Positions 18,533 through 35,495 of a stretch of 64,000 nucleotides of DNA are shown here, in pieces; the first letter of the stretch is position 1; each line of letters opens with the position of its first letter. Source of the stretch: a virus (lineage: Duplodnaviria > Caudoviricetes); the IMG/VR virus record IMGVR_UViG_3300033068_001747, one strand, 5' to 3'. A program made the position numbers and the translations under genes. Below the pieces are notes generated by a model. That model had not been told where the DNA came from, ran no database searches, and saw only the letters and a program-made list of their open reading frames with translations.

Positions 18533-18580
18533 AGTGTATATATTATTTATTTTATATATATTTGTAAAAATTTAGAAATC

Positions 18581-21181: not shown

Positions 21182-21248
21182 AGTAAGCAGAGAACCTATC
21201 GCTGGAAACAGAGGAAGTTCGCGACTACAAAACCTCATTACATATATA
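21180..21248 (+). ncRNA. rnpB: RNase P RNA, 5' segment (5' strands of P1, P2, P4, P5, P6 plus P3)
   Basis: GAGGAAGTTCGCGA CR-I-like motif; CTG-GAAA-CAG P3; complementary to the 25030-25177 segment. Confidence 0.8.
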
Positions 21249-21296
21249 TTAAAACTTTTAAACATAAAATAAATATATATTTTAAATAATAAAACT

Positions 21297-21704
21297 ATGT
21301 TATTAACTAAAAGCGTTGAATATGCTATTAAATCACTCATACTAATCAATTATGATAGTAAAATAAATATCGAATATATTAGTTCTAAACTAGATATACC
21401 TAGAAGTTTCACATCAAAAATATTACAAGTACTTGTAAAAAAGGACTACATCTCTTCTAAAAGAGGCCCAGGTGGTGGTTTTGTAGTAAATGATTATTCA
21501 AAAACATTAAAAGATTTAATATGTGATATTGATCATAAATTTGATTATGATAAATGTGTTATGGGATTAAGTGGCTGCTCTGATGAGAATGCTTGTCCTT
21601 TACATGAAAATTTCAAAGAAATTAAAAATAAAATTTTAAACGAATTAATGATATTAAAAATATCAGATATTTGTAAAAATCCAAATAAAGTTTTAAAACT
21701 ATAA
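21297..21704 (+). CDS. Rrf2 family transcriptional regulator
   Basis: SVEYAI, SKRGPGGGF, C-terminal Cys cluster. Confidence 0.9.
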   Translation: MLLTKSVEYAIKSLILINYDSKINIEYISSKLDIPRSFTSKILQVLVKKDYISSKRGPGGGFVVNDYSKTLKDLICDIDHKFDYDKCVMGLSGCSDENACPLHENFKEIKNKILNELMILKISDICKNPNKVLKL

Positions 21705-21779
21705 GAATATTTTTTATATATATAATAATTGTAGATATGAATGTCTTTTTATCTACAATTAAAAAAATTATATAAAACT

Positions 21780-23558
21780 ATGTTTACAAAATTAGATGAA
21801 TTACAAAAAAAGGTTAAAAAGGATTTTATAAAGAATTATATAAACTCCAAGAATGCAGCAAGTGGATCATTATTTGATCCAAATTCAAATGTTACTTCTA
21901 AAAATATTGCAACTTTAGAAGCAGAATTAAACAAAGATATTAACATACAAGTTAATAGGTCTCTTATCTATTCTAAAATAGAAGAAAATTTTGGAACAGA
22001 AATGGCAGACTCATATATTAAAGACATTGAAGACCACTTAATATATGTTCATGATGAGACATCATTGAAGCCATATTGTGTGAGTATCTCAATGTATCCG
22101 TTGTTATTAAATGGTTTAAGTGGCTTAGGTGGTGAGTCGAAAGCACCTAAACACTTAGCAAGCTTTTGTGGTTCATTTATTAACCTTTTATTCTCAGTGT
22201 CATCACAGTTCGCTGGTGCAGTAGCTACTGTGGAATTCTTACTTTACTTTGACCACTTTGCAAGATTAGATTATGGAGATGACTACTTAACAACACATAA
22301 AAAAATAATAGAGAATGAGTTACAACATGTAGTTTATGCTATTAACCAACCTGCCGCGGCAAGAGGTTATCAATCAGTATTTTGGAATATATCTTTATAT
22401 GATATTGAATATTTTAATTCAATGTTTGGTGACTTTGTTTTTCCTGATATGGATAAACCAAACTATAGTAGCTTAGATAAACTACAGAAGTTTTTCATGA
22501 AATGGTTTAATAAAGAAAGGGAAAATGCGGTATTAACATTCCCTGTAATCACAGCAGCTATGTTGACTAAAGATAAAAAAGTATATGATGTTAACTTTGG
22601 TAACTTTTGTGCAGAAGAGTTAAGTGAAGGTAATTCATTCTTTATATATCAATCAGAAAGTGCAGATTCATTAGCATCTTGTTGCAGACTAAGAAATGAA
22701 ATATCTGATAATACTTTTAGCTACTCTCTTGGTGCTGGTGGTGTATCCACTGGTTCTATAAATGTGATAACTATTAATATGAATAGACTTATTCAAAAAG
22801 ATATTAGTCTAGATGATTTATTAGATAGAATATATAAATATCAAATGTCATACCGATATTTAATACAGGATTACTTAGATGCTAAGATGTTACCTGTTTA
22901 TGATTCTGGTTTTATATCAATTGATAAACAATTTCTAACAATAGGTATAAATGGTATGGTTGAATCCGCAGAATATCTTGGAATTGAAATATCAGATAAT
23001 GATAAATATAAAGACTATATCAATAGTAGATTGAAAACAATATATGATAAAAATAAATTAGCAAAGATTGAATATGGTTGCATGTTTAATACTGAATTCG
23101 TCCCTGCTGAAAATTTAGGAGTAAAAAATGCTAAGTGGGACAAAGAAGATGGTCTATTCGTAACAAGAGACTGTTATAACTCATACTTTTATATAGTTGA
23201 GGACGAGTCACAGAATGTAGTAGATAAATTCTTTTTACATGGAAATGATTATATAAAATATCTAGATGGTGGTAGTGCATATCATTGTAATTTAGAAGAT
23301 TATCCTACAAAAGAAGGATTCTTTAAGCTATTAAATGTATCAGCTTATACTGGTTGTAATTATTTTTGCTTTAATATAAAAGTAACAATATGTAATGATT
23401 GTGAACATATAAATAAAAAGACTGAATACCATTGTGTGAAATGTGACAGTAGAAATGTAGATCACGCTACAAGAATAATAGGATATCTTAAAAGAATAAC
23501 TAGCTTCAGTAAAGATAGACAAAAAGAAGCAGCAAAAAGATATTACAATCAAAAATGA
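21780..23558 (+). CDS. nrdD: Anaerobic ribonucleoside-triphosphate reductase (class III)
   Basis: IYVHD, SCCRL, PAENL, CxxC...CxxC, TRIIGYL glycyl-radical motif. Confidence 0.93.
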   Translation: MFTKLDELQKKVKKDFIKNYINSKNAASGSLFDPNSNVTSKNIATLEAELNKDINIQVNRSLIYSKIEENFGTEMADSYIKDIEDHLIYVHDETSLKPYCVSISMYPLLLNGLSGLGGESKAPKHLASFCGSFINLLFSVSSQFAGAVATVEFLLYFDHFARLDYGDDYLTTHKKIIENELQHVVYAINQPAAARGYQSVFWNISLYDIEYFNSMFGDFVFPDMDKPNYSSLDKLQKFFMKWFNKERENAVLTFPVITAAMLTKDKKVYDVNFGNFCAEELSEGNSFFIYQSESADSLASCCRLRNEISDNTFSYSLGAGGVSTGSINVITINMNRLIQKDISLDDLLDRIYKYQMSYRYLIQDYLDAKMLPVYDSGFISIDKQFLTIGINGMVESAEYLGIEISDNDKYKDYINSRLKTIYDKNKLAKIEYGCMFNTEFVPAENLGVKNAKWDKEDGLFVTRDCYNSYFYIVEDESQNVVDKFFLHGNDYIKYLDGGSAYHCNLEDYPTKEGFFKLLNVSAYTGCNYFCFNIKVTICNDCEHINKKTEYHCVKCDSRNVDHATRIIGYLKRITSFSKDRQKEAAKRYYNQK

Positions 23559-24007
23559 GATTTAAAGAATATAATATAGTATTCCAAGAGATACCTAATG
23601 AGGTATCTCTTTGTTTCTCTATAACAGGTTGTAACCTAAGGTGTGATGGTTGTCACTCACCATTTTTATGGAAAATTAATAGCGGTGATTTATTAACAAT
23701 AGATGTATTAAATACACTTTTAAAAAAATATGATAAGATTATATCTTGTGTTCTTTTTATGGGTGGAGAATGGCACACTAAAGAGTTTATTAAAACATTA
23801 TCTTATATTAGAAGCATGGGTATAAAAACCGCTTTATATACAGGGTTAGAACTTGATGATGTTAGTGTGGATATTAGAAATAATTTAGACTATTTAAAGT
23901 TTGGACCTTGGATAAAAGAATTAGGTGGACTTCAATCAAAGACAACAAATCAAAAATTATTAAATATAAATAATGATGAGTGTTTAAATCACTATTTTAT
24001 TAAATAA
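23555..24007 (+). CDS. nrdG: Anaerobic RNR activase (radical SAM)
   Basis: GCNLRCDGCHS; adjacent to nrdD. Confidence 0.92.
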   Translation: MRFKEYNIVFQEIPNEVSLCFSITGCNLRCDGCHSPFLWKINSGDLLTIDVLNTLLKKYDKIISCVLFMGGEWHTKEFIKTLSYIRSMGIKTALYTGLELDDVSVDIRNNLDYLKFGPWIKELGGLQSKTTNQKLLNINNDECLNHYFIK

Positions 24008-24258
24008 ACTTTTTCAATATTAGATTATTTAAAGATTAAAATATAAATTAAATTATGACTTTTATAAATATCAGAAATTATTAACCACACTTATAATATG
24101 ATTCAAAGGATTTTGAACGATTAATGATGTTAGGAATAATCCAAATGGATTAGGTGGACAAGCTATGACAAGAACATAAACAATATTTTAAACATGAATA
24201 TTCTTTTATTCTAAAAGAAAAAATAACAATAGAGAGAACAACAAATGAATAAGATTTT

Positions 24259-24480
24259 ATGAAAGTAGTTTGTATAAAAAAATACCTATCTACCAATTTA
24301 AGATATGAACTTACTTATGGTAAAATATATGAAACTCTACCTAAGTTTCCTAATGATTTAGAAGATGATTATAGAATAGAGTGTGATAGAGGTTTTATAG
24401 AATTTTATAGTAAAGATACATTTATAACTTTAGAAGATTGGAGAGAACAACAAATAAATAAAATTGTAAATGAATATTAG
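24259..24480 (+). CDS. Small protein, V-x-CIK...LT-x-GK-x-Y family, C-terminal tag WREQQINKIV
   Basis: Similar to 26805, 59258 and 60715 ORFs. Confidence 0.65.
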   Translation: MKVVCIKKYLSTNLRYELTYGKIYETLPKFPNDLEDDYRIECDRGFIEFYSKDTFITLEDWREQQINKIVNEY

Positions 24481-24751
24481 ATGTATATTTGGACATAAAT
24501 GGGAACTTTCTAAAATAGAAAGAGAGATTGAATATAACTTACCTAAGCTTGGTAAAAAAGGTGCTTGGAATGGTTCAGGTAGAAAGGTTATTATGACTAC
24601 TTCTGATGATATTAGAATATGTAAAAGATGTTATAAGAAACAAAAGGCAATGTATAGTCCATTTAGTCATGTTAGAATTGCAGATTGGAGGAATGATGAA
24701 CTCAGTAAAGATGAACTTAGAGATAAAAAATTAAAAGAATTAGGTATATGA
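24470..24751 (+). CDS. Small zinc-binding protein, C-terminal tag LRDKKLKELGI
   Basis: CIFGHKW...CKRC. Confidence 0.65.
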   Translation: MNIRCIFGHKWELSKIEREIEYNLPKLGKKGAWNGSGRKVIMTTSDDIRICKRCYKKQKAMYSPFSHVRIADWRNDELSKDELRDKKLKELGI

Positions 24752-25014
24752 GTCTTAAATTAATAGCCAAAAAAACACATATTGTACGTAAAAACATTCA
24801 AGGTAATGGTAAAACTAGCCATATTATTGAAAAAGGTCAAATATTTACCATCTTTGTCAAACATATTACAAAGTATGACAAAGATGGTGAATTGGTGACT
24901 GTTTGTATATACCATATAAAAGATGGTTGGATTATAAATTTTAAAAACTTTACAACAAAGGAGAAATATACTGCAATCAAAAGACAACATATATTAGATC
25001 AAATATTAGGTTAA
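24748..25014 (+). CDS. Hypothetical protein, C-terminal tag KRQHILDQIL
   Basis: ORF track. Confidence 0.6.
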   Translation: MSLKLIAKKTHIVRKNIQGNGKTSHIIEKGQIFTIFVKHITKYDKDGELVTVCIYHIKDGWIINFKNFTTKEKYTAIKRQHILDQILG

Positions 25015-25029
25015 TAAATAAATAAAAAT

Positions 25030-25177
25030 TATATTTGTAACTTAGGAGACTAACGTCGTTTGTACTAAGGAAGTAGCAAGTCAAACAGTTCGAGGGTGTC
25101 GGTTTCCCTATGAGAATGGGTTGATGCAAAGATAAATGATAGGATAGAACAAAATCGCGGCTAAGCTCACTTACTTT
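25030..25177 (+). ncRNA. rnpB: RNase P RNA, 3' segment (P9-like hairpin, P15-P17, CR-IV, CR-V; no P18)
   Basis: GTAGCAAG, AGATAAATGAT and ACAAAATCGCGGCTAA match bacterial rnpB conserved regions; pairs with the 21180 segment. Confidence 0.8.
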
Positions 25178-25231: not shown

Positions 25232-26296
25232 ATGTTAACAACTTTGCTAATTTTAGCTTTACTTGCAGTTTGTATCTTTGAATTTGTAAATGGATTTCAC
25301 GATACTGCTAATGCCGTTGCGACGGTAATTTACACAAAATCTTTAAAACCTAAACAAGCAGTTGTTTGGTCAGGAATTATGAACTTTCTTGGACTTATGA
25401 CTGGTGGTGTAGGTGTCGCACTTAGTATTGTAACACTAATACCCAAAGAACTAATCACTGATACTAACATATACCACTCTATGGGAATGGTTATGTCAAT
25501 TCTTATTACTGCAATTTTTTGGAATTTAGCAACTTGGTACAAAGGAATTCCTGCTTCTTCTTCACATACTTTAATCGGCTCAATAATTGGAGTTTCTGTA
25601 GGTTACTCTATTTTAACTGGTGTAGATTACACTAATTGGGGTAAAATTATTGATATAGGAAAAGCGTTAGCTTTCTCACCTTTATTAGGTTTCACTATGG
25701 TTATACTTTTAATGTGGTTTCTAAACAAAGTTATCAAAAGAAAAGATGTATTTGAAGAGCCAAATGGTGATACTCCACCACCAACTTGGATTAGAGCGAC
25801 TTTAATTTCAACTTGTACATTAGTTTCATTTTTTCACGGAAGAAATGACGGTCAAAAAGGAATTGGTTTAGCAATGATTATACTTATGGCTTTCTTACCT
25901 ACTTACTTTACATTAGAAACTGTTGAAAATCCACCAATGTGGGTTATGTGGATGATTGCTACGTCATTAGGATTAGGAACAATGATTGGTTGGAAAAGAA
26001 TTGTAGTTACAATTGGAGAGAAAATTGGTAAACAACACTTAACTTATGCACAAGGTGCTTCTTCTGAATTAGTTGCTGCAATCACAATTGGATTATCAAC
26101 TGCATTTAAACTACCAGTATCAACAACACACATTCTAAGTTCTGGTATTGCAGGGTCAATGGTGGCATCAAAAGGAATAAATAATTTAAAAACTAAAACA
26201 ATTAAAACAATATTATCCGCTTGGATTCTTACGTTACCAGTAACAATTGTGGTATCATGTGGATTATTTCTATTATTTAGATATATTTCAGGATAA
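25232..26296 (+). CDS. pit: Inorganic phosphate transporter (PiT family)
   Basis: NGFHDTANAVAT, GIPASSSHTLIG, HGRNDGQK, PVSTTH. Confidence 0.93.
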   Translation: MLTTLLILALLAVCIFEFVNGFHDTANAVATVIYTKSLKPKQAVVWSGIMNFLGLMTGGVGVALSIVTLIPKELITDTNIYHSMGMVMSILITAIFWNLATWYKGIPASSSHTLIGSIIGVSVGYSILTGVDYTNWGKIIDIGKALAFSPLLGFTMVILLMWFLNKVIKRKDVFEEPNGDTPPPTWIRATLISTCTLVSFFHGRNDGQKGIGLAMIILMAFLPTYFTLETVENPPMWVMWMIATSLGLGTMIGWKRIVVTIGEKIGKQHLTYAQGASSELVAAITIGLSTAFKLPVSTTHILSSGIAGSMVASKGINNLKTKTIKTILSAWILTLPVTIVVSCGLFLLFRYISG

Positions 26297-26318: not shown

Positions 26319-26789
26319 ATGAAAAAAATATTTACAATATTATTATTACTTTTATCTCTTACAAGTGGAGCACAAGAGGTTAAAAGTAGAACTGAAATTA
26401 TAACTGCTCCTGTACTTATCTGTTCTACACCTGAAAGAGATAAATGGTTTGCGATTGTTCCAAGTTTTGAGAAATTAGAAGGGTTTATTGTAAAAACCTA
26501 TTTAACTACATTAAAGTTGAATATAGGTACTTGTAGTAAAGATGATGCTCTTGTATTTATATTCACAGATGGTAGAAAAATTAAAATAAATGCCAATAAT
26601 GAAAAAAGATGTGATGGTATAGTTGAAGTAAAATTTACATTAAACGCAATTGACGTAGCTTTTCTAGAAACAAAAACACTACAATCCATAAGATACATAA
26701 ATGGTAATGATTCTGTATCATTTTTATATTCCTCAACTAAAGAAGATTGTAACTATTTCGTAAATACATTTGGTACATATAAAAGATAG
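26319..26789 (+). CDS. Secreted hypothetical protein
   Basis: Signal peptide. Confidence 0.65.
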   Translation: MKKIFTILLLLLSLTSGAQEVKSRTEIITAPVLICSTPERDKWFAIVPSFEKLEGFIVKTYLTTLKLNIGTCSKDDALVFIFTDGRKIKINANNEKRCDGIVEVKFTLNAIDVAFLETKTLQSIRYINGNDSVSFLYSSTKEDCNYFVNTFGTYKR

Positions 26790-26804
26790 TATTATCTTTG
26801 CCTT

Positions 26805-27059
26805 ATGAAATTAGAAAAAGGTACAAAAGTAAAATGTATTAGAAATACATTCAATGGTTCTTATCGTCATGGTGAGATTGCTTTCCCTTATTTAACAGTT
26901 GGTAAAACTTATACTGTTGTGATGGATTTTGGACCTACACTTGCTATGATAGCTGATAATGGACACGGTTTATCTCTTGGAAAAGATTTATTTATAACAT
27001 TAGAAGATTATAGAGAAAAACAAATTGAAAAAATTTTTAAAAAAGATTTGGTAGATTAA
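26805..27059 (+). CDS. Small protein, VKCI...LTVGKTY family, C-terminal tag YREKQIEKIF
   Basis: Paralog of 24259 ORF. Confidence 0.65.
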   Translation: MKLEKGTKVKCIRNTFNGSYRHGEIAFPYLTVGKTYTVVMDFGPTLAMIADNGHGLSLGKDLFITLEDYREKQIEKIFKKDLVD

Positions 27060-27097
27060 AAAAGTCACCGTATCTTTGTCAAAGAAATAAAATAAGG

Positions 27098-27180
27098 GCT
27101 TACAAGAGTAGTAGCTATTGGAAAAGTAAATCCTCTTATCATTGATAATGAAACTTTATGTTGGCGGTGGTATTGTAAGC
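27098..27180 (+). ncRNA. Candidate small RNA with terminal stem
   Basis: Directly after a promoter repeat; GCTTACAA/TTGTAAGC terminal complementarity; no ORF. Confidence 0.45.
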
Positions 27181-27268
27181 AATTAAATTTTCATAGAAAT
27201 TTTGAAAAATAATTGAAAAAAGATTTGGTAGATTAAAAAAGTCACCGTATCTTTGTCAAACAAAATAA

Positions 27269-27355
27269 GGGAAGATATACAAGTCTGGTCAAAGTAGGCT
27301 ACCGGTGAGGTAGTCGGTTTTATATCTTCGAGCGGTTCGAATCCCTCTCTTCCCA
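27269..27355 (+). tRNA. Atypical tRNA with long variable region and non-canonical anticodon loop
   Basis: GGGAAGA/TCTTCCC + A; GGCTACC-GGTGA-GGTAGTC arm; GGTTCGAATCC. Confidence 0.65.
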
Positions 27356-27535
27356 CAAAAAAAATTTTAAAAAAGATTTGGTAGATTAAAGAATACTCCT
27401 TATCTTTGTCAAACAAAATACGAGTTATGAGTTGTGGCTCGAAGATTAAACCAAAACTCAAAAAAAATTAAAAAAAGTTAAAAAAGATTTGGTAGATTAA
27501 AAAAGTCTTCTTATCTTTGTCAAACAAAATAAAAA

Positions 27536-27619
27536 TGTGTGTTACCGGAGTTATGAGTTAGAATACAACTTGTAAGTATAGACGGGCTGCTGATGAAGTT
27601 GGTCCGCTCCCTAACCACA
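27536..27619 (+). ncRNA. Candidate structured small RNA
   Basis: After a promoter repeat; TGTG..GTTA..GGAG / CTCC.TAAC.CACA closing helix with internal hairpins. Confidence 0.45.
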
Positions 27620-27627
27620 AAAAATCT

Positions 27628-27738
27628 GGTCTGTTCGTCTAGCGGATGTCACTTCGGTGATAGGACGACACTTCTACGCTTAAATGTGCCCTGGTATATG
27701 GAGAGGTGTAAACAAAGGTTCGAATCCTTTACAGACTA
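27628..27738 (+). tRNA. tRNA-Glu-like RNA copy 1 (D-loop hairpin, 26-nt anticodon-loop expansion)
   Basis: GGTCTGT/ACAGACT acceptor; TCAC-TTCG-GTGA in D-loop; ACACTTCT/AGAGGTGT stem. Confidence 0.75.
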
Positions 27739-27858
27739 CAAAAAAAAATGAAAAAAGATTTGGTAGATTAAAAAAGTCTTCGTATCTTTGTCAAACAAAA
27801 TAAGAGTAGGTGTCTTGTGAAATTCTTGACTTCTTGGTGTACGATAGCACAACTCTTC

Positions 27859-27945
27859 GGTCTGTTCGTCTAGCGGTGTCACTTCGGTGACTAGGACAAC
27901 TTCCCTTTCAGGAAGGAAACGCGGGTTCGAATCCCGTACAGACTA
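27859..27945 (+). tRNA. tRNA-Glu-like RNA copy 2 (UUC in a 6-nt loop)
   Basis: Same body; CTTCC-CTTTCA-GGAAG anticodon arm. Confidence 0.8.
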
Positions 27946-28007
27946 CTGCTTTAATGGAATTTTAAGCTTGAGTTTTGTGATGGAACTCTTTAAAGAACTA
28001 TCACATC

Positions 28008-28096
28008 GGTCTGTTCGTCTAGCGGTTCACTTCGGTGATAGGACAACTTTTCAGTGAGTGATGAAGTAAACGCGGGTTCGAATCCCGTACAGACTA
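28008..28096 (+). tRNA. tRNA-Glu-like RNA copy 3 (extended anticodon arm, loop GTGAG)
   Basis: Same body; ACTTTTCA-GTGAG-TGATGAAGT arm. Confidence 0.75.
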
Positions 28097-28161
28097 CAAA
28101 TAAAATATAGGTGGTTACACGCCAGTAATGGTGTGTGTATCAAAGAGGTAAGCCACTTATC

Positions 28162-28249
28162 GGTCTGTTCGTCTAGCGGATGTCACTTCGGTGACTAGGA
28201 CATCTTCTCTTCGGAGTTGGGAACGCAGGTTCGAATCCTGTACAGACTA
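28162..28249 (+). tRNA. tRNA-Glu-like RNA copy 4 (anticodon loop replaced by a cUUCGg tetraloop)
   Basis: Same body; CTC-TTCG-GAG. Confidence 0.75.
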
Positions 28250-28266
28250 CAACAAATAAAACATAT

Positions 28267-28339
28267 CGCGGGATAGAGCAGTAGGCAGCTCGCAAGGCTC
28301 ATAACCTTGAGGTCACAGGTTCGAGTCCTGTTCCCGCTA
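28267..28339 (+). tRNA. tRNA-fMet (CAU)
   Basis: C1:U72 mismatch, CAAGG-CTCATAA-CCTTG, canonical D and T arms. Confidence 0.9.
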
Positions 28340-28421
28340 CTAAGTGTAAATGTCATTCTGTAATGTTGACAAGTTGGTACTTTTAGTATCCATCTTTAGT
28401 GTAATTAAAACACGACACTTC

Positions 28422-28534
28422 GGTCTGTTCGTCTAGTGGACGTTTACTGAACACAAAGCTTCGGCATTAAAGTAAAGTAAACAGGACTTCTCCCTTAGAA
28501 GGAGACAACGCGGGTTCGAATCCCGTACAGACTA
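28422..28534 (+). tRNA. tRNA-Glu-like RNA copy 5 with UAG (Leu) anticodon and ~40-nt D-loop insertion
   Basis: Same acceptor and T arm; TCTCC-CTTAGAA-GGAGA; GTTTACT...AGTAAAC inserted helix. Confidence 0.75.
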
Positions 28535-28554
28535 CAATGCTTGGTCGCCAGGTA

Positions 28555-28631
28555 GTTACATAGTTTAACTAAAACACGAAGTATCGCCTTGTTTGCGGTG
28601 AAGGATGTGAGTGTAAAATCTCGCTGTAACA
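28555..28631 (+). ncRNA. Degenerate tRNA-like structure
   Basis: GTTACA/TGTAAC + A; GTGAG-TGTAAAAT-CTCGC T-like arm. Confidence 0.4.
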
Positions 28632-28649
28632 CAAAAAAGTAAAAATAAT

Positions 28650-28720
28650 TTTGGTAGTTTAAACAACTTTTATTATCTTTGCTCTATAATAAAGACAAAA
28701 AGATTACGTTCTTTGAAAAT
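28650..28720 (+). promoter_or_regulatory. Bacteroidota-type promoter plus boxA-like antitermination element
   Basis: TTTG...TATCTTTG followed by GTTCTTTGAAAA. Confidence 0.6.
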
Positions 28721-29560
28721 ATTGTATTATCCAACTAGTCACTTCGGTGGTTAGTAAAATGATAATCGGCGGTGTATCGTCGTTAAATAAACTACGAAAG
28801 TAGGATAAAGTGGAATCAACGTTAAATGGTTCTGCGGCTCGTAAGAGCTCGAGTACACAAGTGGGATATCCAACGTCCTGATTAACCGAGGGCTTACGCT
28901 GTAGGTGAAATGGAATTTGGACTTGGCAATGTGGATTGTCGAGTTGATGTGGGAACACCAATAAGAATAACCCATAGGAACTCTGTAAGAAAGGTAGCTC
29001 CAACTATCTGATTGCGGGTTCCAATATAAAAGGCAACTTAAAACCGAAAGGTAAGGTAGAGAACAGGTGGTGCTGCTACTATCCCTACTAAATGTCTACC
29101 AAGACGTTAGTTTGAAGTTTTCTTGAAGTATGGAGGCTGGGAGGCTTCACGAAGGAGTTTAGTATTTCGTTGTTCAAAAGATAACGAAGCTTACGACAGA
29201 CCACTTCTTCGACACATCCACGAACACAAAAGCAATTTACATTTGAAGTAAAATTTAAACATAAAAAGCGAAAGTGTCTGTCAGGTTTCAACGAAAGTTG
29301 ACTACATACTTAGGAGCTGTTCCTAGGACGTCAAGACCGCAAGTTAAGACGTATTCTTGCCAAAAACCTCTAAGGGGTCGAACCCTTAATCAGACCGCAA
29401 GTTTGAAGAGAGTTGAGTAATAAGAGAGTAGTTGAAACCTCAAGAAGTGATTAGTCTAACTAATCGTCAATGAGAATTACAATCCAAAAGATTGTGGATA
29501 CGAAGAGAAACAATAATTCTTCAAAAGATTCTTACAAGATGGCATAATCTCAGCCTATTA
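28720..29560 (+). ncRNA. Large (~850 nt) structured ncRNA, GOLLD-like candidate
   Basis: Raised GC; no credible ORF; many GNRA/UUCG-capped hairpins; follows a tRNA cluster and boxA; terminator after. Confidence 0.65.
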
Positions 29561-29587
29561 TTTCTAAACAACAAAACACGTGAAACA

Positions 29588-29622
29588 AAAACCCTTTACT
29601 ATTGACAGTAAGGGGCTTTTTT
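29588..29622 (+). terminator. Intrinsic terminator after the large ncRNA
   Basis: ccctttact-attgac-agtaagggg followed by a T tract. Confidence 0.65.
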
Positions 29623-29692
29623 ATTTATAAAAATTATTTTAAACTTTTTCTACTCTGAGACTATAAGTCATGAACTAAAAATAATTTAAAAT

Positions 29693-30557
29693 ATGAAAAA
29701 ACTTCTAACTTTGGTTGCCTTACTAATGACAACAATCTTGTTTAGTCAAAACATCACACAATGGAACTTTGACAATATAAACCCAGCAAATGCAATGTTA
29801 CCTACTACAGGTACAGGAACTTTTACCACAATTGGCGGTGTTGTAGACAACCTTACTACAAATTTAATGCCAGCCGGAAATCCTTCAAGTGGTAAAGCGT
29901 ATAGTATTAAAACTTTCCCAACAACAGGAACATTATCAGGAACTGCAGGATTCCAATTTAATGTTAGTACATTAGGATATAATGACCTAATAAATGTCAC
30001 TTTTGATCCAAGAGGATCAGACACATCATCAAGATTTCAACAATATGAATATAGTATTGATGGAGGTACAACCTGGACTATACTAAGTAATAATGGTGGT
30101 ACATTAACGAACTCATTTACTACAACTCCAATGGTAACTTTAACTATGCCCACTAATGCAAGTAATCAGTCAGGATTTGCATTTAGAATTGTATCAATTT
30201 TTAATCCAATTGGGACTGATTATCTAGCAGGTAGGACCAACATCTACATATAGTACAGGTGGTGCTTGGAGAATCGACAACTTCACCGTTTCAAATGGCT
30301 CTTTAGTACTATCTACTAATCAAAATACTAAAATGGGTTTAATCGTTTACCCTAACCCAGTAAACAATGGCTTACTAAACATTCAAACAACTGATAACTC
30401 AGTTAAGAATGTTGTAGTTTATGATCTATTAGGAAAACAAGTACTTAGTACTTCAACTTCTAATACTGTTAACGTTTCTTCTTTAAAACCTGGTGTTTAC
30501 ACTATGAAAATAACAGAAGAAGATAATACAGGTGTAATGAAAATAGTTATTAACTAA
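29693..30557 (+). pseudogene. T9SS type A sorting-domain secreted protein, split by a +1 frameshift near 30230
   Basis: Signal peptide; frame resumes as VGPTSTYSTGGAWRIDNF...YPNPV (T9SS CTD) if one G is removed from GCAGGTAGG. Confidence 0.75.
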
Positions 30558-30582: not shown

Positions 30583-33105
30583 ATGAGGAAATTATTATTA
30601 ATTCTAATCGGACTTTTTAGTATGACGGTATCAGCTCAAACTAAAGAGAAAGTAGAGGACCAAACTACTAAAAAAGACTCGGTCGAAAATGTTAAAGAAC
30701 TACAAGAAGTTGTAGTTGTAGGTAGAGGAGTTATTGACCTAGCAAAAGAAAGAAAAACTCCTATTGCGGTTTCAACAGTAAAAGCGGTTGAAATACAAGC
30801 AAAAGTTGGTACAGCAGACGTTACACAAGCTTTGGTAAACACACCATCTGTTTATGTTGCAGGACAAGCTGGAGGTTTTGGTGACTCAAGAATCTCAGTT
30901 CGTGGGTTCCAACAAGACAATACTGCTTTCCTATTAAATGGTCAACCAATCAATGGTATGGAAGATGGTAAGATGTACTGGTCTAACTGGTCGGGTATGT
31001 CAGATATTGCAAATGCAATACAAATTCAAAGAGGTTTAGGTTCTTCTAAACTAGCAATCTCATCAGTCGGTGGTACAGTAAACTTTATTACAAGAGCAAC
31101 TGATATGAGACAAGGTGGATTTTCATCAGCAGGTGTTGCTAATGATGATTATTTAAAAACAACAGTTGGATATAATACAGGTATTATGGAAAACGGTTTC
31201 GGTGCAAGTGTTATGTTATCACATTGGCAAGGTGATGGTTATTTTGATGGAACAAAAGGTCAAGGTCAAAACTACTTTATCTCATTCGGTTATAAACCAA
31301 ATGCAAAACATAACTTTAACTTCTTAATTACTGGTGCACCACAGCAACACGATCAAAACTTCACAAAAAAGATTTCTGATTACTTAGGTTTCGGCAGAAG
31401 ATATAATAACAATTACGGTTATTTGAATGGTCAATATATATCAGAAAGAGTGAATTTTTATCATAAACCAGTTGCAAACTTTAACTGGGATTATAAAATA
31501 AACGATAAGCTAGACTTATCAACAGTTCTTTATGCATCTTGGGGTAGAGGTGGAGGAACTGGTAACTACGGTAGTGGGAAGAAAAGTGTTTCTCAATTAA
31601 ATCCTTATACAGGTCAAATGCAAAACACTTATATTGATTTTAATCAGATTTATGCTAATAACTCAGCAGATGCTGATGGTATTGGATCTAGTTCAAATTA
31701 TGCAATTAGATCATCTATGAATAATCATGAGTGGTATGGTATTGTGTCAAACTTAAAAAATAAGTTGAATGATAATTTAACATTAAACTTAGGAGTTGAT
31801 TTAAGAACATATAATGGTGATCACTATAGACAAATTACTAATTTTATGGGGTTAAATGGATGGACTGAAAGTAGATTTTTAAGAGATAATAATCATGTTA
31901 TTCCTAACCCAAATACATTACCAAGTGCAACCATTACAGTTAATCAATCATTTAGTACTAACCCGTGGTCTGCATTCTTTAATAAAGCAGATGATAGTCA
32001 AAAAATTGACTATGACTACAGTGAAACAATTTCTTACGGTGGAGTCTTTGGACAATTAGAGTATTCTAAAGATAACTTCTCAACTTTCTTTCAAGGAGCA
32101 GTTTCTAATCAAACACACCAAAGATTTGACTACTATGACTATCAAAAAGAATTTCAAAATTCTGAAAAAGTTTCTAATGTAGGATATAATGTAAAAGGTG
32201 GTGCCGCATATAACTTCAATGAAAAACACGTTGTTTATGGAAATGCTGGATATTACTCAAGACAACCATATCATGATAACATTTACTTAAACTTTACTAA
32301 CCAAGTAAACCCATTAACACAAAACGAGAAAGTTTTAGGACTAGAAGCTGGTTATACATTCAAATCAAAAGTTTTTACTACTAGCATAAACGCTTATAGA
32401 ACAACTTGGGAAGATAGAGTCGTAACTACATCAAATGTTCAATCTACAAATGGAGTTATTGGAACTACACCAGTTTCTGTAGGTGATGTCATCTTCACAT
32501 CCAATCAAGGTGTTAGACAAATTCATTCTGGTGTTGAGTTAGACTTTATATTAAAACCTGTTGCTAAATTAGATATTAAAGGATTTGCATCAGTTGGAAA
32601 CTGGGAATATAGTGGAAGTGCTACTAGTAGAAAATTTGATGAAAACTTAAATTTACTAACTGAAGCTGAAACAAATTTAGATGGTGGAAAAGTAGGTGAT
32701 GCTGCTCAAACAACTTGGGGATTAGGTGCTAAATATGAATTGTTAACAAGATTCTCTATTGATGCTGATTGGAGAAACTATGATAATTTATATGCAAATG
32801 TAGTTGCTAAAGATAACTTACAGTTACCTTCTTATGACTTAGTAGATATGGGTATATCATATAAAATGTTAGTAGGTAAAGACAAACAAAATTCTGTAAA
32901 CTTTAGATTAAATGTAAATAACTTATTTGATGAAGTTTATTTATCTGAGTTAACTTCTAATATTAAAACTGATGCATTTATCAGTGGAAACTCAGGACCT
33001 ACATATCAATCTGCAGGTAGAGTTTACAAAGGAATCGCTGATGGAAACCAAGGTTTCTTTGGATTTGGAAGAACTTGGAACTTAACATTAAGATATAATT
33101 TCTAA
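30583..33105 (+). CDS. TonB-dependent receptor
   Basis: Signal peptide, plug (TPSVY, VRGFQQ, QRGLGSS...GGTVN), C-terminal YNF. Confidence 0.93.
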   Translation: MRKLLLILIGLFSMTVSAQTKEKVEDQTTKKDSVENVKELQEVVVVGRGVIDLAKERKTPIAVSTVKAVEIQAKVGTADVTQALVNTPSVYVAGQAGGFGDSRISVRGFQQDNTAFLLNGQPINGMEDGKMYWSNWSGMSDIANAIQIQRGLGSSKLAISSVGGTVNFITRATDMRQGGFSSAGVANDDYLKTTVGYNTGIMENGFGASVMLSHWQGDGYFDGTKGQGQNYFISFGYKPNAKHNFNFLITGAPQQHDQNFTKKISDYLGFGRRYNNNYGYLNGQYISERVNFYHKPVANFNWDYKINDKLDLSTVLYASWGRGGGTGNYGSGKKSVSQLNPYTGQMQNTYIDFNQIYANNSADADGIGSSSNYAIRSSMNNHEWYGIVSNLKNKLNDNLTLNLGVDLRTYNGDHYRQITNFMGLNGWTESRFLRDNNHVIPNPNTLPSATITVNQSFSTNPWSAFFNKADDSQKIDYDYSETISYGGVFGQLEYSKDNFSTFFQGAVSNQTHQRFDYYDYQKEFQNSEKVSNVGYNVKGGAAYNFNEKHVVYGNAGYYSRQPYHDNIYLNFTNQVNPLTQNEKVLGLEAGYTFKSKVFTTSINAYRTTWEDRVVTTSNVQSTNGVIGTTPVSVGDVIFTSNQGVRQIHSGVELDFILKPVAKLDIKGFASVGNWEYSGSATSRKFDENLNLLTEAETNLDGGKVGDAAQTTWGLGAKYELLTRFSIDADWRNYDNLYANVVAKDNLQLPSYDLVDMGISYKMLVGKDKQNSVNFRLNVNNLFDEVYLSELTSNIKTDAFISGNSGPTYQSAGRVYKGIADGNQGFFGFGRTWNLTLRYNF

Positions 33106-33854: not shown

Positions 33855-34100
33855 ATGGAACAAAAAGAACTTAACTACGGAATTATGCCAGGAGAAACTT
33901 GGCGACACTACAAAGGTGGTAACTACAAAATTATCACTCTAGCAAATCATACTGAAACTAAAGAACCTTTAGTTATTTATCAATCTATATCATTTGGATC
34001 AATCTATGCAAGACCTTTATCAATCTGGTGTGATACCGTTGAAAATAGAAGAGGTGGTTTGGAACCAAGATTTGTAAAAGTTGAAAGTGAAAATGAGTAA
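33855..34100 (+). CDS. DUF1653 family protein
   Basis: WRHYKGGNY...A.HTET.E.LVIY...YARPL. Confidence 0.85.
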   Translation: MEQKELNYGIMPGETWRHYKGGNYKIITLANHTETKEPLVIYQSISFGSIYARPLSIWCDTVENRRGGLEPRFVKVESENE

Positions 34101-35373
34101 GATAGATTTATTACTAGGTCTTCAATGGGGAGACGAAGGAAAAGGAAAAATTGTAGATGTTATTACATCAAAATATGACATAGTTGCAAGATTTCAAGGT
34201 GGTCCAAATGCTGGACATACAATCTACTTTGATGGTAGAAAACATGTTTTAAGAACTATACCATCAGGTGTATTCAATAAAAATACAATAAATATAATTG
34301 GTAATGGTGTTGTACTTGATCCAGTTGTATTTAAACAAGAAGTTGAAGAACTACTTAAATTTGATAAAACTATTAAAGATAGATTACTTATCTCAAGAAA
34401 AGCTCATCTTATTTTTCCAACACACAAACTTTTAGATGCTACATCAGAAGCAGCCAAAGGTAAAGATAAAATTGGCTCTACTCTTAAAGGTATTGGACCT
34501 ACTTATATGGACAAAACTGGTAGAAATGGTATCAGAGTTGGCGATTTAGAATTACCAGACTTCCATAAAAGATTTGCTAAGTTAGAAAAGAAACATGATG
34601 AACTAATTGATTGGGGTGTTATTGAACAATTTAACACTAACTATGATGATATGCAAGATGAATTTTTAGATGCAATTACTTATCTAAAACAATTTACATT
34701 TATCGATAGTGAAGAATATCTATTTCAAGCTCAACAACAAGGAAAATCAATTCTTTGTGAAGGAGCTCAAGGTTCTTTATTAGATGTTGACTTTGGTACT
34801 TATCCATTTGTTACTTCTTCTAATACAACTGCCGCAGGAGCTTGTACTGGTTTAGGAATTGCCCCTAATAAAATACAAGATGTGTTTGGTATATTTAAAG
34901 CATACACAACAAGAGTTGGTAGTGGTCCATTTCCAACTGAATTGTTTGATGAAACAGGTGAGAAAATGGCTAAAATTGGTAATGAATTTGGATCTGTTAC
35001 TGGTAGAGCAAGAAGATGTGGTTGGTTAGATTTAGTTGCGTTAAAATACACTTGTCAAATTAATGGTGTAACTGAACTAATGATGATGAAAGCAGACGTA
35101 CTATCAGGATTTGACAATATAAAGGTTTGTATAGGTTATAAATATAAAGGTGAAGTAATTACTCACTTTCCTTATAACATTGAACCAGAGAACTTAGAAC
35201 CTATCTATTTAGGGTTTAGTGGTTGGTCAGAAGACTTAACTGGAATTACAGATTATAAGGATTTACCAGATGAACTAAAAGAATATATAGAGTTTATTGA
35301 AAAAGAAACAGGAATAAATATAACACTTGTTTCTGTGGGTCCAGATAGAAAACAAACAATAAGAAAAAATTAG
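34093..35373 (+). CDS. purA: Adenylosuccinate synthetase
   Basis: GLQWGDEGKGK, GGPNAGHT, EGAQG, TRVGSGPFPTE, RRCGWLD. Confidence 0.97.
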   Translation: MSKIDLLLGLQWGDEGKGKIVDVITSKYDIVARFQGGPNAGHTIYFDGRKHVLRTIPSGVFNKNTINIIGNGVVLDPVVFKQEVEELLKFDKTIKDRLLISRKAHLIFPTHKLLDATSEAAKGKDKIGSTLKGIGPTYMDKTGRNGIRVGDLELPDFHKRFAKLEKKHDELIDWGVIEQFNTNYDDMQDEFLDAITYLKQFTFIDSEEYLFQAQQQGKSILCEGAQGSLLDVDFGTYPFVTSSNTTAAGACTGLGIAPNKIQDVFGIFKAYTTRVGSGPFPTELFDETGEKMAKIGNEFGSVTGRARRCGWLDLVALKYTCQINGVTELMMMKADVLSGFDNIKVCIGYKYKGEVITHFPYNIEPENLEPIYLGFSGWSEDLTGITDYKDLPDELKEYIEFIEKETGINITLVSVGPDRKQTIRKN

Positions 35374-35450: not shown

Positions 35451-35495
35451 TATCTGGGCTATAAAACTATGTACAAAAAATTAAAACTAAAAACA

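What the first reader, a model, noticed from the sequence alone, without database searches (positions are those of the whole stretch)
27628..28534. Five paralogous tRNA-Glu-like RNAs with a hairpin grafted into the D-loop and hypervariable or absent anticodons
Seen: five copies (27628, 27859, 28008, 28162, 28422) share GGTCTGTTCGTCTAG[C/T]GG...AGGAC, a canonical T arm and ACAGACT-A. Each has an extra UUCG-containing helix in the D-loop: TCAC-TTCG-GTGA in four copies, a ~40-nt helix in copy 5. The anticodon arms all differ: a 26-nt loop, a 6-nt CTTTCA loop, an extended arm with GTGAG, a cUUCGg tetraloop with no anticodon, and a perfect 7-nt loop with UAG. A conserved acceptor/T half with free variation in the decoding half suggests selection for a non-decoding role. 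Inference: decoys or inhibitors for host tRNA-targeting defences, aminoacyl carriers for the anticodon-blind GluRS-like enzyme at 17190, or processing signals. The elbow hairpin may be incompatible with a host RNase P S-domain, which would fit the S-domain-reduced phage RNase P.
Basis: partly seen in the sequence, partly recalled or inferred. Interest (0 to 1): 0.88.

Follow-up and report, generated by a model that had tools for sequence, protein, structure and literature searches.

The report
Phage tRNA-Glu mimics beside GOLLD RNA
The five repeats are real genes for tRNA-shaped RNAs derived from glutamate tRNA that carry an extra hairpin and a closed or replaced anticodon arm; they belong to a large, apparently undescribed phage-only family that nearly always sits next to the cage-forming GOLLD RNA, which gives a new handle on that RNA's unknown function.

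Summary
Five copies (27628, 27859, 28008, 28162, 28422, + strand) share a tRNA-Glu acceptor stem, D core and T arm. Each has a 14-43 nt hairpin between G19 and A21 and a different, non-canonical anticodon arm. ARAGORN and Rfam do not call them tRNAs.

They are not decaying pseudogenes. I found 145 unique relatives in 119 phage or metagenome loci, and only one hit in 185,579 bacterial and archaeal genomes. Acceptor, T and extended anticodon stems covary. The D insert always folds as a hairpin. Only 8 of 145 keep a tRNA-like anticodon loop, and 3 of those have a Glu anticodon.

17 of 23 loci with enough flank hold GOLLD, always on the same strand. The mimic often starts 5-12 nt after the GOLLD 3' end, or arrays of up to 10 copies lie upstream.

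Best reading: non-decoding tRNA-Glu mimics, matured like tRNAs, that work with GOLLD. Decoy, glutamate-carrier, pure processing and Ro60-partner roles remain open. Phages carrying the mimics are enriched for GluRS and Ro60 genes, but only about three lineages are involved.

This scan noted an analogous tRNA-Tyr mimic family beside GOLLD on other DNA (e1-5641767). No RNA-seq data could be obtained.

The parts
27628..27739 (+). tRNA-Glu mimic copy 1: 16-nt D-loop hairpin; anticodon arm replaced by an 8-bp stem plus an inner domain containing CCTGGTATATGGAGAG
   Evidence: The same arm type occurs in L100, L130, L131, L241, L152 and L242 with compensatory stem changes.
27859..27946 (+). tRNA-Glu mimic copy 2: 16-nt D-loop hairpin; 5-bp stem with 6-nt loop CUUUCA
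   Evidence: The CUUUCA 6-nt loop recurs in 14 unique family members.
28008..28097 (+). tRNA-Glu mimic copy 3: 14-nt D-loop hairpin; irregular extended 27-nt anticodon region
   Evidence: No relative with the same arm was found (one search shows only body matches).
28162..28250 (+). tRNA-Glu mimic copy 4: 17-nt D-loop hairpin; anticodon stem capped by a cUUCGg tetraloop
   Evidence: L211 has three copies of this arm type with compensatory changes, CUC/GAG against CCC/GGG.
28422..28535 (+). tRNA-Glu mimic copy 5: 43-nt D-loop helix; 5-bp stem with 7-nt loop CUUAGAA
   Evidence: (26 bits to the tRNA model). The 43-47 nt insert is conserved in L093, L100, L130, L241 and L128 with other anticodon arms. 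The loop differs by one base from CUUCGAA in relatives.
28267..28340 (+). Canonical tRNA-Met (CAU) between copies 4 and 5
   Evidence: ARAGORN; Rfam 63.2 bits.
27488..27519 (+). Promoter cassette (TTTG ... TAnnTTTG, Bacteroidota type) upstream of copy 1
   Evidence: seven cassettes in the 64 kb window, all between 26769 and 28681; 0.04 expected.
27759..27790 (+). Promoter cassette upstream of copies 2-5 and the tRNA-Met
28650..28681 (+). Promoter cassette upstream of GOLLD
28700..29556 (+). GOLLD RNA: variable 5' domain about 28700-29149, conserved 3' domain 29150-29556
   Evidence: Rfam RF02032, 324 bits, E 5e-92. The 5' domain is 86-98% identical in close relatives.
29592..29625 (+). Intrinsic terminator after GOLLD
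27268..27356 (+). Second kind of tRNA mimic: long variable arm, anticodon arm closed by a 5-nt loop, with its own promoter at 27224-27255
   Evidence: Sequence read. The ortholog L001 3809-3896 is called 'tRNA-???' by ARAGORN. 93% identical in L130.

Best explanation
The five repeats are expressed genes of a phage-restricted family of tRNA-Glu-derived tRNA mimics that forms part of the GOLLD RNA island of large phages. These phages probably infect Bacteroidota.

Shown here:
- Each RNA keeps a covarying 7-bp acceptor stem with a G1.U72 wobble, A73 and C74, together with the tRNA-Glu D core and a canonical T arm.
- A hairpin of 9-52 nt always projects from D-loop position 20.
- In most members the anticodon arm is a covarying 6-7 bp stem closed by a 4-6 nt U-rich loop (UUUUC, UUUC or CUUUCA), or it is replaced by a larger domain.
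- The genes lie on the GOLLD strand, either directly after GOLLD or in promoter-driven arrays upstream of it.

Inferred:
- The intact acceptor/T half, the pyrimidine at -1 and the encoded C74 mean they are cut by RNase P, 3'-trimmed and CCA-tailed like tRNAs. This gives stable L-shaped RNAs.
- The closed anticodon arm keeps them from decoding, and the elbow hairpin may add to that.

Most likely role, still speculative: they act together with GOLLD, in one or both of two ways.
- As tRNA-type processing handles that define GOLLD's ends in lineages where they flank it.
- As abundant tRNA-shaped partners or cargo of the GOLLD cage.

The retained tRNA-Glu core could also let them engage GluRS-type enzymes.
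For: - Family size and phage restriction: 191 copies, 145 unique, in 119 loci.
- Covariation: the acceptor stem is 100% paired with double changes at 6 of 7 pairs, and the T stem shows them at 4 of 5 pairs.
- The extended anticodon stem was not part of any search filter. It is 95% paired with double changes at 6 of 7 pairs.
- Every D insert folds as a hairpin flush with its ends, although the sequences differ.
- Loop classes among the 145 unique sequences: 80 closed, 24 enlarged, 8 tRNA-like. Only 3 have Glu anticodons.
- Position -1 is U or C in 141 of 145. C74 is encoded in 144 of 145.
- GOLLD linkage: 44 of 119 loci hold GOLLD. Among loci with at least 2.5 kb on both sides, 17 of 23 do. Every copy is on the GOLLD strand. 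Typical positions are 5-12 nt or about 135-190 nt downstream, or 0.4-2.4 kb upstream. Controls: 3 of 145 loci without a regex-detected mimic hold GOLLD.
- L214 and L246 show the layout mimic array - GOLLD - mimic.
- Seven promoter cassettes occur only in this island.
- Phage G005 has a canonical tRNA-Glu(UUC) in its tRNA island, about 33 kb from its mimic.
- Other GOLLD loci carry D-hairpin tRNA look-alikes of another identity.
- Published context: GOLLD lies near tRNA islands, and tRNAs sometimes sit in its inward-facing linker.
Against:
- In this window GOLLD has its own promoter and terminator and no mimic abuts it.
- In a GOLLD-ascertained sample of 119 loci, none had a Glu-type mimic. GOLLD therefore does not need them, and the link holds only in some lineages.
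- 6 of 23 well-flanked mimic loci have no GOLLD within reach.
- The near-invariance of the D core, and part of the pairing percentages, were imposed by my search pattern and filters.
- Linkage could simply reflect both elements living in tRNA islands.
- No complementarity or shared motif between mimic and GOLLD holds across lineages.
Confidence: 0.5

Rival explanations
1. Anti-defence decoys. The mimics bind and titrate, or block, a host nuclease or toxin that attacks tRNA-Glu. Arrays and arm variety reflect an arms race.
For: Copy number and order change quickly among close relatives, from 2 to 5 copies, and D-insert and arm modules are shuffled between copies. Many loops keep the UUUC/UUC core of the tRNA-Glu anticodon loop. 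The mimics have dedicated promoters. The window encodes a tRNA-repair pair, an RNA ligase at 18443-19225 and a PNKP at 20276-21181.
Against: Closed 4-6 nt loops on covarying 6-7 bp stems do not resemble the 7-nt loop an anticodon nuclease would read. Mimics of other tRNA identities share the same architecture beside GOLLD. The GOLLD linkage is left unexplained. I know of no bacterial defence specific for tRNA-Glu (from memory), and the literature search found none.
Confidence: 0.15
2. Non-ribosomal glutamate carriers or GluRS ligands. The mimics are recognised, and perhaps charged, by host or phage GluRS. This could include the 280-aa enzyme that lacks an anticodon-binding domain. The closed anticodon arm would keep them off the ribosome.
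For: They retain U11-A24, U13-G22, a 4-nt variable loop with A46 and no residue 47. [quoted passage not shown] GluRS-family genes occur in 6 of 10 mimic-bearing phage records, and in the window, against 0 of 13 control large phages. One-tailed Fisher p is about 0.002, calculated by hand.
Against: The D core was fixed by my search pattern, so its conservation is not independent evidence. The other major determinants, U34 U35 C36 A37, are absent or in a closed loop in most members. G1.U72 replaces the G1-C72 pair. Four records at 84-100% estimated completeness that carry mimics (G001, G005, G006, G008) have no GluRS hit. Only about three independent lineages are involved, and these phages carry several aaRS genes anyway. 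The mini-GluRS also lacks the segment that aligns with GltX residues about 100-177.
Confidence: 0.12
3. Pure processing punctuation. The mimics are only RNase P / RNase Z cleavage signals that release neighbouring RNAs such as GOLLD or spacer RNAs. This would resemble mitochondrial tRNA punctuation, or the mascRNA that forms the 3' end of MALAT1.
For: The mimic starts 5-12 nt after the GOLLD 3' end in at least 12 loci, and mimics bracket GOLLD in L214 and L246. Position -1 is a pyrimidine in 141 of 145. The anticodon arm is irrelevant to these enzymes (established knowledge).
Against: Ordinary tRNAs would serve equally well, and a tRNA-Met already precedes GOLLD in many loci. Punctuation does not explain the obligatory D hairpin, the covarying closed anticodon stem, or the arm types conserved across phages. 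In the window, the leader after the 27488 promoter and spacers 2, 3 and 6 have no counterpart in relatives, and GOLLD has its own promoter and terminator.
Confidence: 0.1
4. Partners of a phage Ro60 (TROVE) protein. The mimics would be a new kind of Y-RNA-like, tRNA-shaped cofactor in an RNA repair or quality-control particle.
For: A TROVE gene occurs in 6 of 10 mimic-bearing phage records, or 6 of 8 near-complete ones, against 0 of 13 control large phages, 9 of which carry GOLLD. Bacterial Y RNAs (YrlA) contain a tRNA-like module (established knowledge; PMC7824862). In L050 the Ro gene lies 2.9 kb from two mimics.
Against: L050 has its own sub-threshold YrlA-like RNAs directly upstream of the Ro gene. 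In four other phages, neither a mimic nor a YrlA match lies within 3.5 kb of Ro. The mimics have tRNA topology, with both ends in the acceptor stem and no Ro-binding stem. Rfam YrlA does not match the window. Two complete mimic-bearing phages lack TROVE. The lineages are not independent. No TROVE gene turned up among the 20 window ORFs that I scanned with Pfam.
Confidence: 0.06
5. Unusual but working decoding tRNAs, or alternatively decaying tRNA-Glu pseudogenes.
For: A few family members keep a 7-nt loop with U33, R37 and a UUC or CUC anticodon, for example L122, L125 and L138. Copy 5 has canonical loop geometry. In phage G008, model R1 matched only its mimic, so no canonical tRNA-Glu or tRNA-Gln was found there.
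Against: Against decoding: 137 of 145 lack a tRNA-like loop, the pairs next to the loop covary, and G005 has a separate canonical tRNA-Glu. Against pseudogenes: compensatory changes occur in all stems, the copies have their own promoters, and there are more than 100 independent loci.
Confidence: 0.05

Closest known systems
Bacterial and phage tRNA-Glu (UUC/CUC)
   Same: Shares the 7-bp acceptor stem, U8, the D stem GUCU/AGGAC, G18 G19, a 4-nt variable loop, the GGTTCGAAT T arm and an A73-C74 tail. The canonical tRNA-Glu of related phage G005 has the same G1.U72, A73 and C74.
   Different: A 9-52 nt hairpin sits at D-loop position 20. The anticodon arm is closed or replaced in about 95% of members. 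The copies fall below the Rfam threshold and are not called by ARAGORN in the window.
GOLLD RNA (Rfam RF02032) and its associated tRNAs
   Same: GOLLD is a phage RNA known to lie near tRNA islands, often after a tRNA-Met, with tRNAs sometimes in its inward-facing linker. The mimics are co-oriented with it and adjacent to it.
   Different: The mimics are separate modules outside the GOLLD model. The papers I could search describe ordinary tRNAs and not this remodelled family. GOLLD occurs widely without them.
YrlA / bacterial Y RNAs (Rfam RF02553)
   Same: Non-decoding RNAs with a tRNA-like acceptor, D and T module whose anticodon arm is replaced by another helix. Found in bacteria and phages alongside RNA-repair genes. 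Ro60 genes are enriched in phages that carry the mimics.
   Different: In YrlA the 5' and 3' ends lie in the Ro-binding stem, which stands in place of the anticodon arm, and the acceptor-like stem is closed (recalled from the literature). Here the ends are in the acceptor stem, as in a true tRNA. No Rfam match to YrlA.
mascRNA (tRNA-like RNA at the 3' end of MALAT1) and plant-virus 3' tRNA-like structures
   Same: A tRNA-like fold placed directly after a long non-coding RNA, cut out by tRNA-processing enzymes, lacking a conserved anticodon loop and not charged (PMC9976931). This matches the layout in relatives where a mimic starts 5-12 nt after GOLLD.
   Different: Those examples are eukaryotic or plant-viral, single-copy and of unrelated sequence. 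Here there are arrays with their own promoters, and a conserved extra D-loop hairpin.
tRNA-Tyr-derived mimics beside GOLLD
   Same: Same design: a complete tRNA shape, an extra D-loop hairpin, a closed 'anticodon' loop, and a position next to GOLLD in a huge phage. The window's second mimic at 27268-27356 may belong to that family.
   Different: The parent tRNA differs (Tyr, class II, against Glu, class I). I did not see its sequences, so the relationship is untested.

Membership tests
Functional tRNA (Rfam RF00005 / ARAGORN) | Score at or above the curated threshold, or detection by a tRNA finder | tested here: not met
   ARAGORN finds none of the five. Rfam gives 26 bits (copy 5) and 18 bits (copy 2) against 29 bits; the other three get no hit at E up to 10. 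Some relatives do pass at 33-40 bits.
Functional tRNA (Rfam RF00005 / ARAGORN) | 7-bp acceptor stem and 5-bp T stem with a GTTCRAWT loop, maintained by covariation | tested here: met
   the acceptor stem is 100% paired with double changes at 6 of 7 pairs; the T stem is 94% paired with double changes at 4 of 5. Pairing thresholds were part of my filter; the compensatory changes were not.
Functional tRNA (Rfam RF00005 / ARAGORN) | D-loop of normal size (about 7-11 nt) | tested here: not met
   Hairpin inserts of 14-43 nt in the window and 9-52 nt across the family.
Decoding tRNA-Glu | 5-bp anticodon stem, 7-nt loop with U33 and R37, anticodon UUC or CUC | tested here: not met
   In the window, only copy 5 has the geometry, and it reads UAG. 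In the family, 8 of 145 have the geometry and 3 have Glu anticodons. The loop-closing pairs covary.
GluRS substrate (E. coli identity set, PMC9976931) | U11-A24, U13-G22::A46 and absence of residue 47 (augmented D helix) | tested here: inconclusive
   Present in all five copies and in the family: GTCT...AGGAC, with variable loops AAAC, GAAC or CAAC. The D core was required by the search pattern, and charging cannot be tested here.
GluRS substrate (E. coli identity set, PMC9976931) | U34 U35 C36 A37 in the anticodon loop; G1-C72 and U2-A71 | tested here: not met
   Copy 2 alone has UUC followed by A, in a 6-nt loop; the others lack it. Position 1:72 is G.U in 129 of 145, and position 2:71 is G-C.
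YrlA / Y RNA (RF02553) | Match to the covariance model; ends forming a Ro-binding stem; adjacent Ro60 gene | tested here: not met
   No YrlA match in 26800-29700 at E up to 10. The ends lie in the acceptor stem. No TROVE gene turned up among the 20 window ORFs scanned with Pfam. TROVE genes exist elsewhere in 6 of 10 related phage records.
GOLLD RNA (RF02032) | Match to the covariance model | tested here: not met
   The mimics lie outside the GOLLD match, which covers 29150-29556 at 324 bits. They are neighbours of GOLLD, not parts of it.
mascRNA-type 3'-end processing element | tRNA-like fold directly after the long RNA, cleaved by RNase P | not testable with these tools
   The layout is met in relatives, with a 5-12 nt gap in at least 12 loci, but not in this window, where a terminator follows GOLLD. 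Cleavage needs an experiment.

The most novel reading that the evidence does not exclude
The mimics are dedicated partners of the GOLLD nanocage. They would be tRNA-shaped RNAs, blocked from the ribosome by a closed anticodon arm, that are docked to or packed into the 14-mer cage through the elbow hairpin. They might carry an amino acid or recruit a phage Ro60 or GluRS-type protein. GOLLD would then be a container or scaffold for tRNA-like molecules. Mimics derived from different tRNAs (Glu, Tyr-like and others) would have converged on one design for that purpose.
Probability: 0.15. Interest if true: 0.92.

Novelty: new variant of a known kind. Interest (0 to 1): 0.72.

Why it matters
GOLLD has been known since 2009 and was recently shown to form a 14-mer RNA cage, but its function is still unknown. 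A large, conserved, phage-only family of tRNA mimics that travels with GOLLD gives concrete candidates for what the cage handles, or for how it is matured. These candidates can be tested directly by co-expression, cryo-EM, pull-downs and end-mapping.

The family also shows that a hairpin can be tolerated at D-loop position 20, and that a tRNA body can be reused as a scaffold with interchangeable arms. That is relevant to tRNA biology and RNA engineering.

It also exposes a blind spot in annotation. Standard tRNA finders miss these genes, so phage 'intergenic' regions of this kind are under-annotated.

Tried and rejected
No whole genome is held for the window.
- Shared hairpin between the mimic D insert and the GOLLD 5' domain (UCAC-UUCG-GUG at 28738): it is present only in the window's close clade, not in other lineages, so it is not a general docking motif.
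- Complementarity between the CUUUC/UUUUC loops and GOLLD's conserved GAAAG segment: that segment varies (GAAAG, GACAAG, GATAAAG), my extraction failed in most loci, and there was no visible co-variation with loop type. I dropped this as untestable here.
- Spacers as conserved cargo RNAs: the leader after the 27488 promoter and spacers 2, 3 and 6 have no match in relatives. Only spacer 5 (28341-28421) is conserved, at 88-95%.
- GOLLD-ascertained scan: 119 loci, 114 with GOLLD, and none with a Glu-type mimic, so the mimic is not a general GOLLD component.
- Split or reduced RNase P RNA at 21180-25177: Rfam gives nothing credible.
- The search for related loci with a single full-length phage GluRS found only 6 close relatives, too few for a co-occurrence test. 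I used family searches on records instead.
- Literature: four searches found no description of tRNA-Glu-like RNAs with D-loop hairpins, nor of tRNA mimics of this kind beside GOLLD. The library lacks most subscription journals, so prior description cannot be excluded.
Full report
**1. Observation**

The window holds exactly five + strand copies of GGTCTGTTCGTCTAGYGG, at 27628, 27859, 28008, 28162 and 28422 (0.02 expected). Each is followed 86-112 nt later by GGTTCGAATCCnnTACAGACTA (0 expected).

Read as tRNA, each copy has these features:
- a 7-bp acceptor stem, GGUCUGU/ACAGACU, with a G1.U72 wobble;
- U8 C9, the D stem GUCU/AGGAC, and G18 G19;
- a 4-nt variable loop and a GGTTCGAATCC T arm;
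- A73 and C74.

Between G19 and A21 sits a hairpin of 16, 16, 14, 17 or 43 nt.

The anticodon regions all differ:
- Copy 1 has an 8-bp stem carrying an inner domain.
- Copy 2 has 5 bp plus a CUUUCA loop.
- Copy 3 has an irregular extended arm.
- Copy 4 has a cUUCGg-capped stem.
- Copy 5 has 5 bp plus a CUUAGAA loop.

ARAGORN calls none of them. Rfam's tRNA model stays below threshold. Minimum-free-energy folds of copies 1, 2 and 5 give a cloverleaf plus the extra hairpin. The description is therefore confirmed.

**2. Context in the window**

The copies lie in a 2.8-kb gene-free island.
- Seven near-identical promoter cassettes (TTTGGTAGWTTAAA...TATCTTTG) occur at 26769-28681 and nowhere else in the 64 kb. 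The TTTG / TAnnTTTG spacing is the Bacteroidota housekeeping promoter type; this rests on my own knowledge, not on a test here.
- The island also holds a second kind of tRNA mimic at 27268-27356, with a closed 5-nt 'anticodon' loop.
- A normal tRNA-Met lies at 28267-28340.
- At 29150-29556 there is a full GOLLD RNA (RF02032, 324 bits). It has its own promoter (28650) and terminator (29592).

Elsewhere the window encodes:
- a GluRS catalytic core of 280 aa, which lacks both the segment aligning with GltX residues about 100-177 and everything after about 320;
- an RNA ligase and a polynucleotide kinase-phosphatase;
- several other truncated aaRS-like genes.

**3. A large family restricted to phages**

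The huge uncultured phage LR745206.1 (634 kb) has a syntenic island: a class-II-like mimic, a Glu-type mimic, tRNA-Met, GOLLD, and then two more Glu-type mimics.

I ran pattern scans and then a structural filter.
- They gave 191 copies, 145 of them unique, in 119 viral or metagenomic loci.
- The same pattern over one genome from each of 185,579 prokaryote species found a single insert-bearing copy. It lies on a 5.9-kb contig that also carries GOLLD, so it is probably phage DNA.

**4. Selection, not decay**

On 34 diverse members:
- The acceptor stem is 100% paired, with changes on both sides at 6 of 7 pairs.
- The T stem shows such changes at 4 of 5 pairs.
- Shuffled and slid controls are far lower.
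- Caveat: a minimum number of pairs was part of my filter, but the compensatory changes were not.

The D inserts share little sequence, yet every one folds as a hairpin flush with its ends.

In the commonest arm class, the anticodon stem is 7 bp closed by UUUUC. This stem entered no filter, and it shows double changes at 6 of 7 pairs. The pair next to the loop alternates between U.G and C-G, so the loop really is closed.

Across the 145 unique sequences:

| Anticodon-arm class | Count |
|---|---|
| Closed loop of 3-6 nt on a stem of at least 4 bp | 80 |
| Enlarged arm | 24 |
| 7-nt loop lacking U33 or R37 | 14 |
| Irregular | 19 |
| tRNA-like loop | 8 |

Anticodons in the 8 tRNA-like loops are UCG x3, UUC x2, CUC, GUC and UAG.

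Within the window's clade, mean pairwise identity by module is 0.95 (acceptor), 0.97 (D core), 0.87 (T arm), 0.60 (D insert) and 0.57 (anticodon region).

Arm types still recur across phages:
- Copy 1's arm occurs in six other loci with compensatory stem changes.
- Copy 4's arm occurs in L211.
- Copy 2's loop occurs in 14 unique members.
- Copy 5's long insert occurs in five loci.

Copy 5's loop, CUUAGAA, is one base from the CUUCGAA loop found on the same stem in relatives. This argues against reading UAG as a real anticodon.

**5. They are not the phage's tRNA-Glu**

Phage G005 (436 kb) carries its mimic beside GOLLD at about 36 kb. It also has a canonical tRNA-Glu(UUC) in a 14-gene tRNA island at about 69 kb. 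That tRNA has the same G1.U72, A73 and C74.

L050 has a canonical tRNA-Glu(CUC) next to two mimics.

Phage G002 has Glu-like genes with a 6-nt UUUUCA loop but no D insert, so the two traits can be separated.

**6. Linkage to GOLLD**

- GOLLD's 3' domain is present in 44 of the 119 loci. Among loci with at least 2.5 kb on both sides of the mimic, it is present in 17 of 23.
- Every mimic in the GOLLD-containing loci is on the GOLLD strand.
- Downstream positions cluster at 5-12 nt after the GOLLD 3' end (at least 12 loci), at about 135-145 nt, and at about 190 nt.
- Upstream positions lie 0.4-2.4 kb away, in arrays of up to 10 copies with an 11th copy downstream (L214).
- Among 145 loci with no regex-detected mimic, 3 had GOLLD. 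Two of those are explained: L065 has mimics that my regex missed, and L187 is the same contig as L173.

The reverse does not hold. A GOLLD-ascertained sample (119 loci, 114 with GOLLD) contained no Glu-type mimic. It did contain tRNA look-alikes of another identity with a D-loop hairpin and a GAAA-capped 'anticodon' arm (L334, L285, L315, L354).

That note is unverified by me.

Published work says that GOLLD lies near tRNA islands, that it often follows tRNA-Met, that tRNAs sometimes sit in its linker, and that the linker faces the cage interior. I found no paper describing these remodelled tRNAs.

**7. Mechanism**

Shown: a conserved tRNA-shaped fold, an extra elbow hairpin, a closed or replaced anticodon arm, dedicated promoters, and GOLLD linkage.

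Inferred: maturation by RNase P, 3' trimming and CCA addition. This rests on the intact acceptor/T half, a pyrimidine at -1 in 141 of 145, and C74 encoded in 144 of 145. The lack of a decoding function is also inferred.

Most likely role: a function coupled to GOLLD. The mimics could serve as processing handles where they flank GOLLD, as abundant tRNA-shaped partners or cargo, or as both. This is supported only by genomic linkage and by the recurrence of the same design on different tRNA bodies.

**8. Rivals**

- *Decoys against tRNA-Glu-targeting defences.* This fits the fast array turnover and the nearby Rnl/PNKP repair genes. It does not fit the closed loops.
- *Glutamate carriers or GluRS ligands.* This fits the retained augmented-D-helix determinants (PMC9976931). 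GluRS-family genes occur in 6 of 10 mimic-bearing records against 0 of 13 controls. Against it, the D core was imposed by my pattern, the anticodon determinants are missing, four records at 84-100% estimated completeness have no GluRS hit, and only about three lineages are independent.
- *Punctuation only.* This does not explain the hairpin, the covarying arms or the non-conserved spacers.
- *Ro60 partners.* This is a new lead. TROVE genes occur in 6 of 10 records (6 of 8 near-complete) against 0 of 13 controls. However, L050 has its own YrlA-like RNAs next to Ro, and mimics are not near Ro elsewhere.
- *Pseudogenes or working decoders.* Both are unlikely.

**9. Verdict**

The specific mechanisms are unproven, and the RNase P argument is unsupported.

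The element is a new variant of the tRNA-mimic theme. It is apparently undescribed in the literature I could search. Its main interest is the tight tie to GOLLD.

Noticed in passing
window 27268-27356 (+), promoter at 27224-27255: A second kind of tRNA mimic. It has a class-II-like body with a long variable arm, and its anticodon arm is a 7-bp stem closed by GGUGA. The ortholog in LR745206.1 (L001 3809-3896) is called 'tRNA-???' by ARAGORN. It is 93% identical in L130. It may belong to the tRNA-Tyr mimic family noted earlier in this scan.
   Followed up: partly
window 27090-27215 and 27420-27470 (+): Two further short promoter-driven transcripts in the same island, behind the cassettes at 27047 and 27377. 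They match no Rfam family and have no counterpart in most relatives.
   Followed up: partly
window 17190-18032, 9304-10560, 1725-2678, 35469-36131 (+): Truncated aminoacyl-tRNA synthetase genes. One is a 280-aa GluRS core lacking the GltX segment around residues 100-177 and the anticodon-binding domains. One is a 418-aa LeuRS-like core. One is a 317-aa class II (D/K/N) core. One is a 220-aa HisRS N-terminal fragment that overlaps a GIY-YIG/NUMOD homing endonuclease gene (36074-36955, minus strand), which may have split it.
   Followed up: partly
window 18443-19225 and 20276-21181 (+); 14674-16722 (-): An RNA ligase and a polynucleotide kinase-phosphatase, the classic tRNA-repair pair, lie next to the mini-GluRS gene. 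A ClpB-like double AAA+ protein is nearby.
   Followed up: no
Rfam gives only a 14.9-bit match (E 0.32) to the archaeal RNase P model at 25044-25172, and nothing at 21180-21230.
   Followed up: partly
L334 2183-2273, L285 5428-5519, L315 2005-2096, L354 1474-1564: In other GOLLD-bearing phages there are tRNA look-alikes of a different identity (GGTATTATAGCTCAGTGG...). They have a D-loop hairpin (GGAGAT-TT-ATCTCC) and an 'anticodon' arm capped by CGAAAG. This suggests the hairpin-plus-closed-arm design recurs on different tRNA bodies.
   Followed up: partly
L390 467-542 and 737-812 (phage G002): tRNA-Glu-like genes with a 6-nt UUUUCA loop but a normal D-loop, flanking a tRNA-Met in a tRNA island. 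The closed-loop trait therefore exists without the D hairpin.
   Followed up: no
L050 3961-4202 and 4302-5804: Two sub-threshold YrlA (Y RNA-like) matches, 34 and 33 bits, lie directly upstream of a 500-aa Ro60/TROVE gene. This is 2.7-2.9 kb downstream of two Glu-type mimics. A degenerate tRNA-Glu-like gene also lies at 406-484.
   Followed up: partly
window 28341-28421: The spacer between tRNA-Met and copy 5 is 88-95% conserved in close relatives, unlike the other spacers of the array. It may be a small RNA or a processing element.
   Followed up: no
window 46977-48434, 34081-35373, 30583-33105, 51359-53416, 25232-26296: Host-like metabolic and envelope genes in a phage context: malate:quinone oxidoreductase, adenylosuccinate synthetase and a TonB-dependent receptor at 51359-53416 are confirmed by Pfam. 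The 30583-33105 ORF (TonB-dependent receptor) and the 25232-26296 ORF (PiT-type phosphate transporter) are named only from earlier scan notes and were not scanned here.
   Followed up: no
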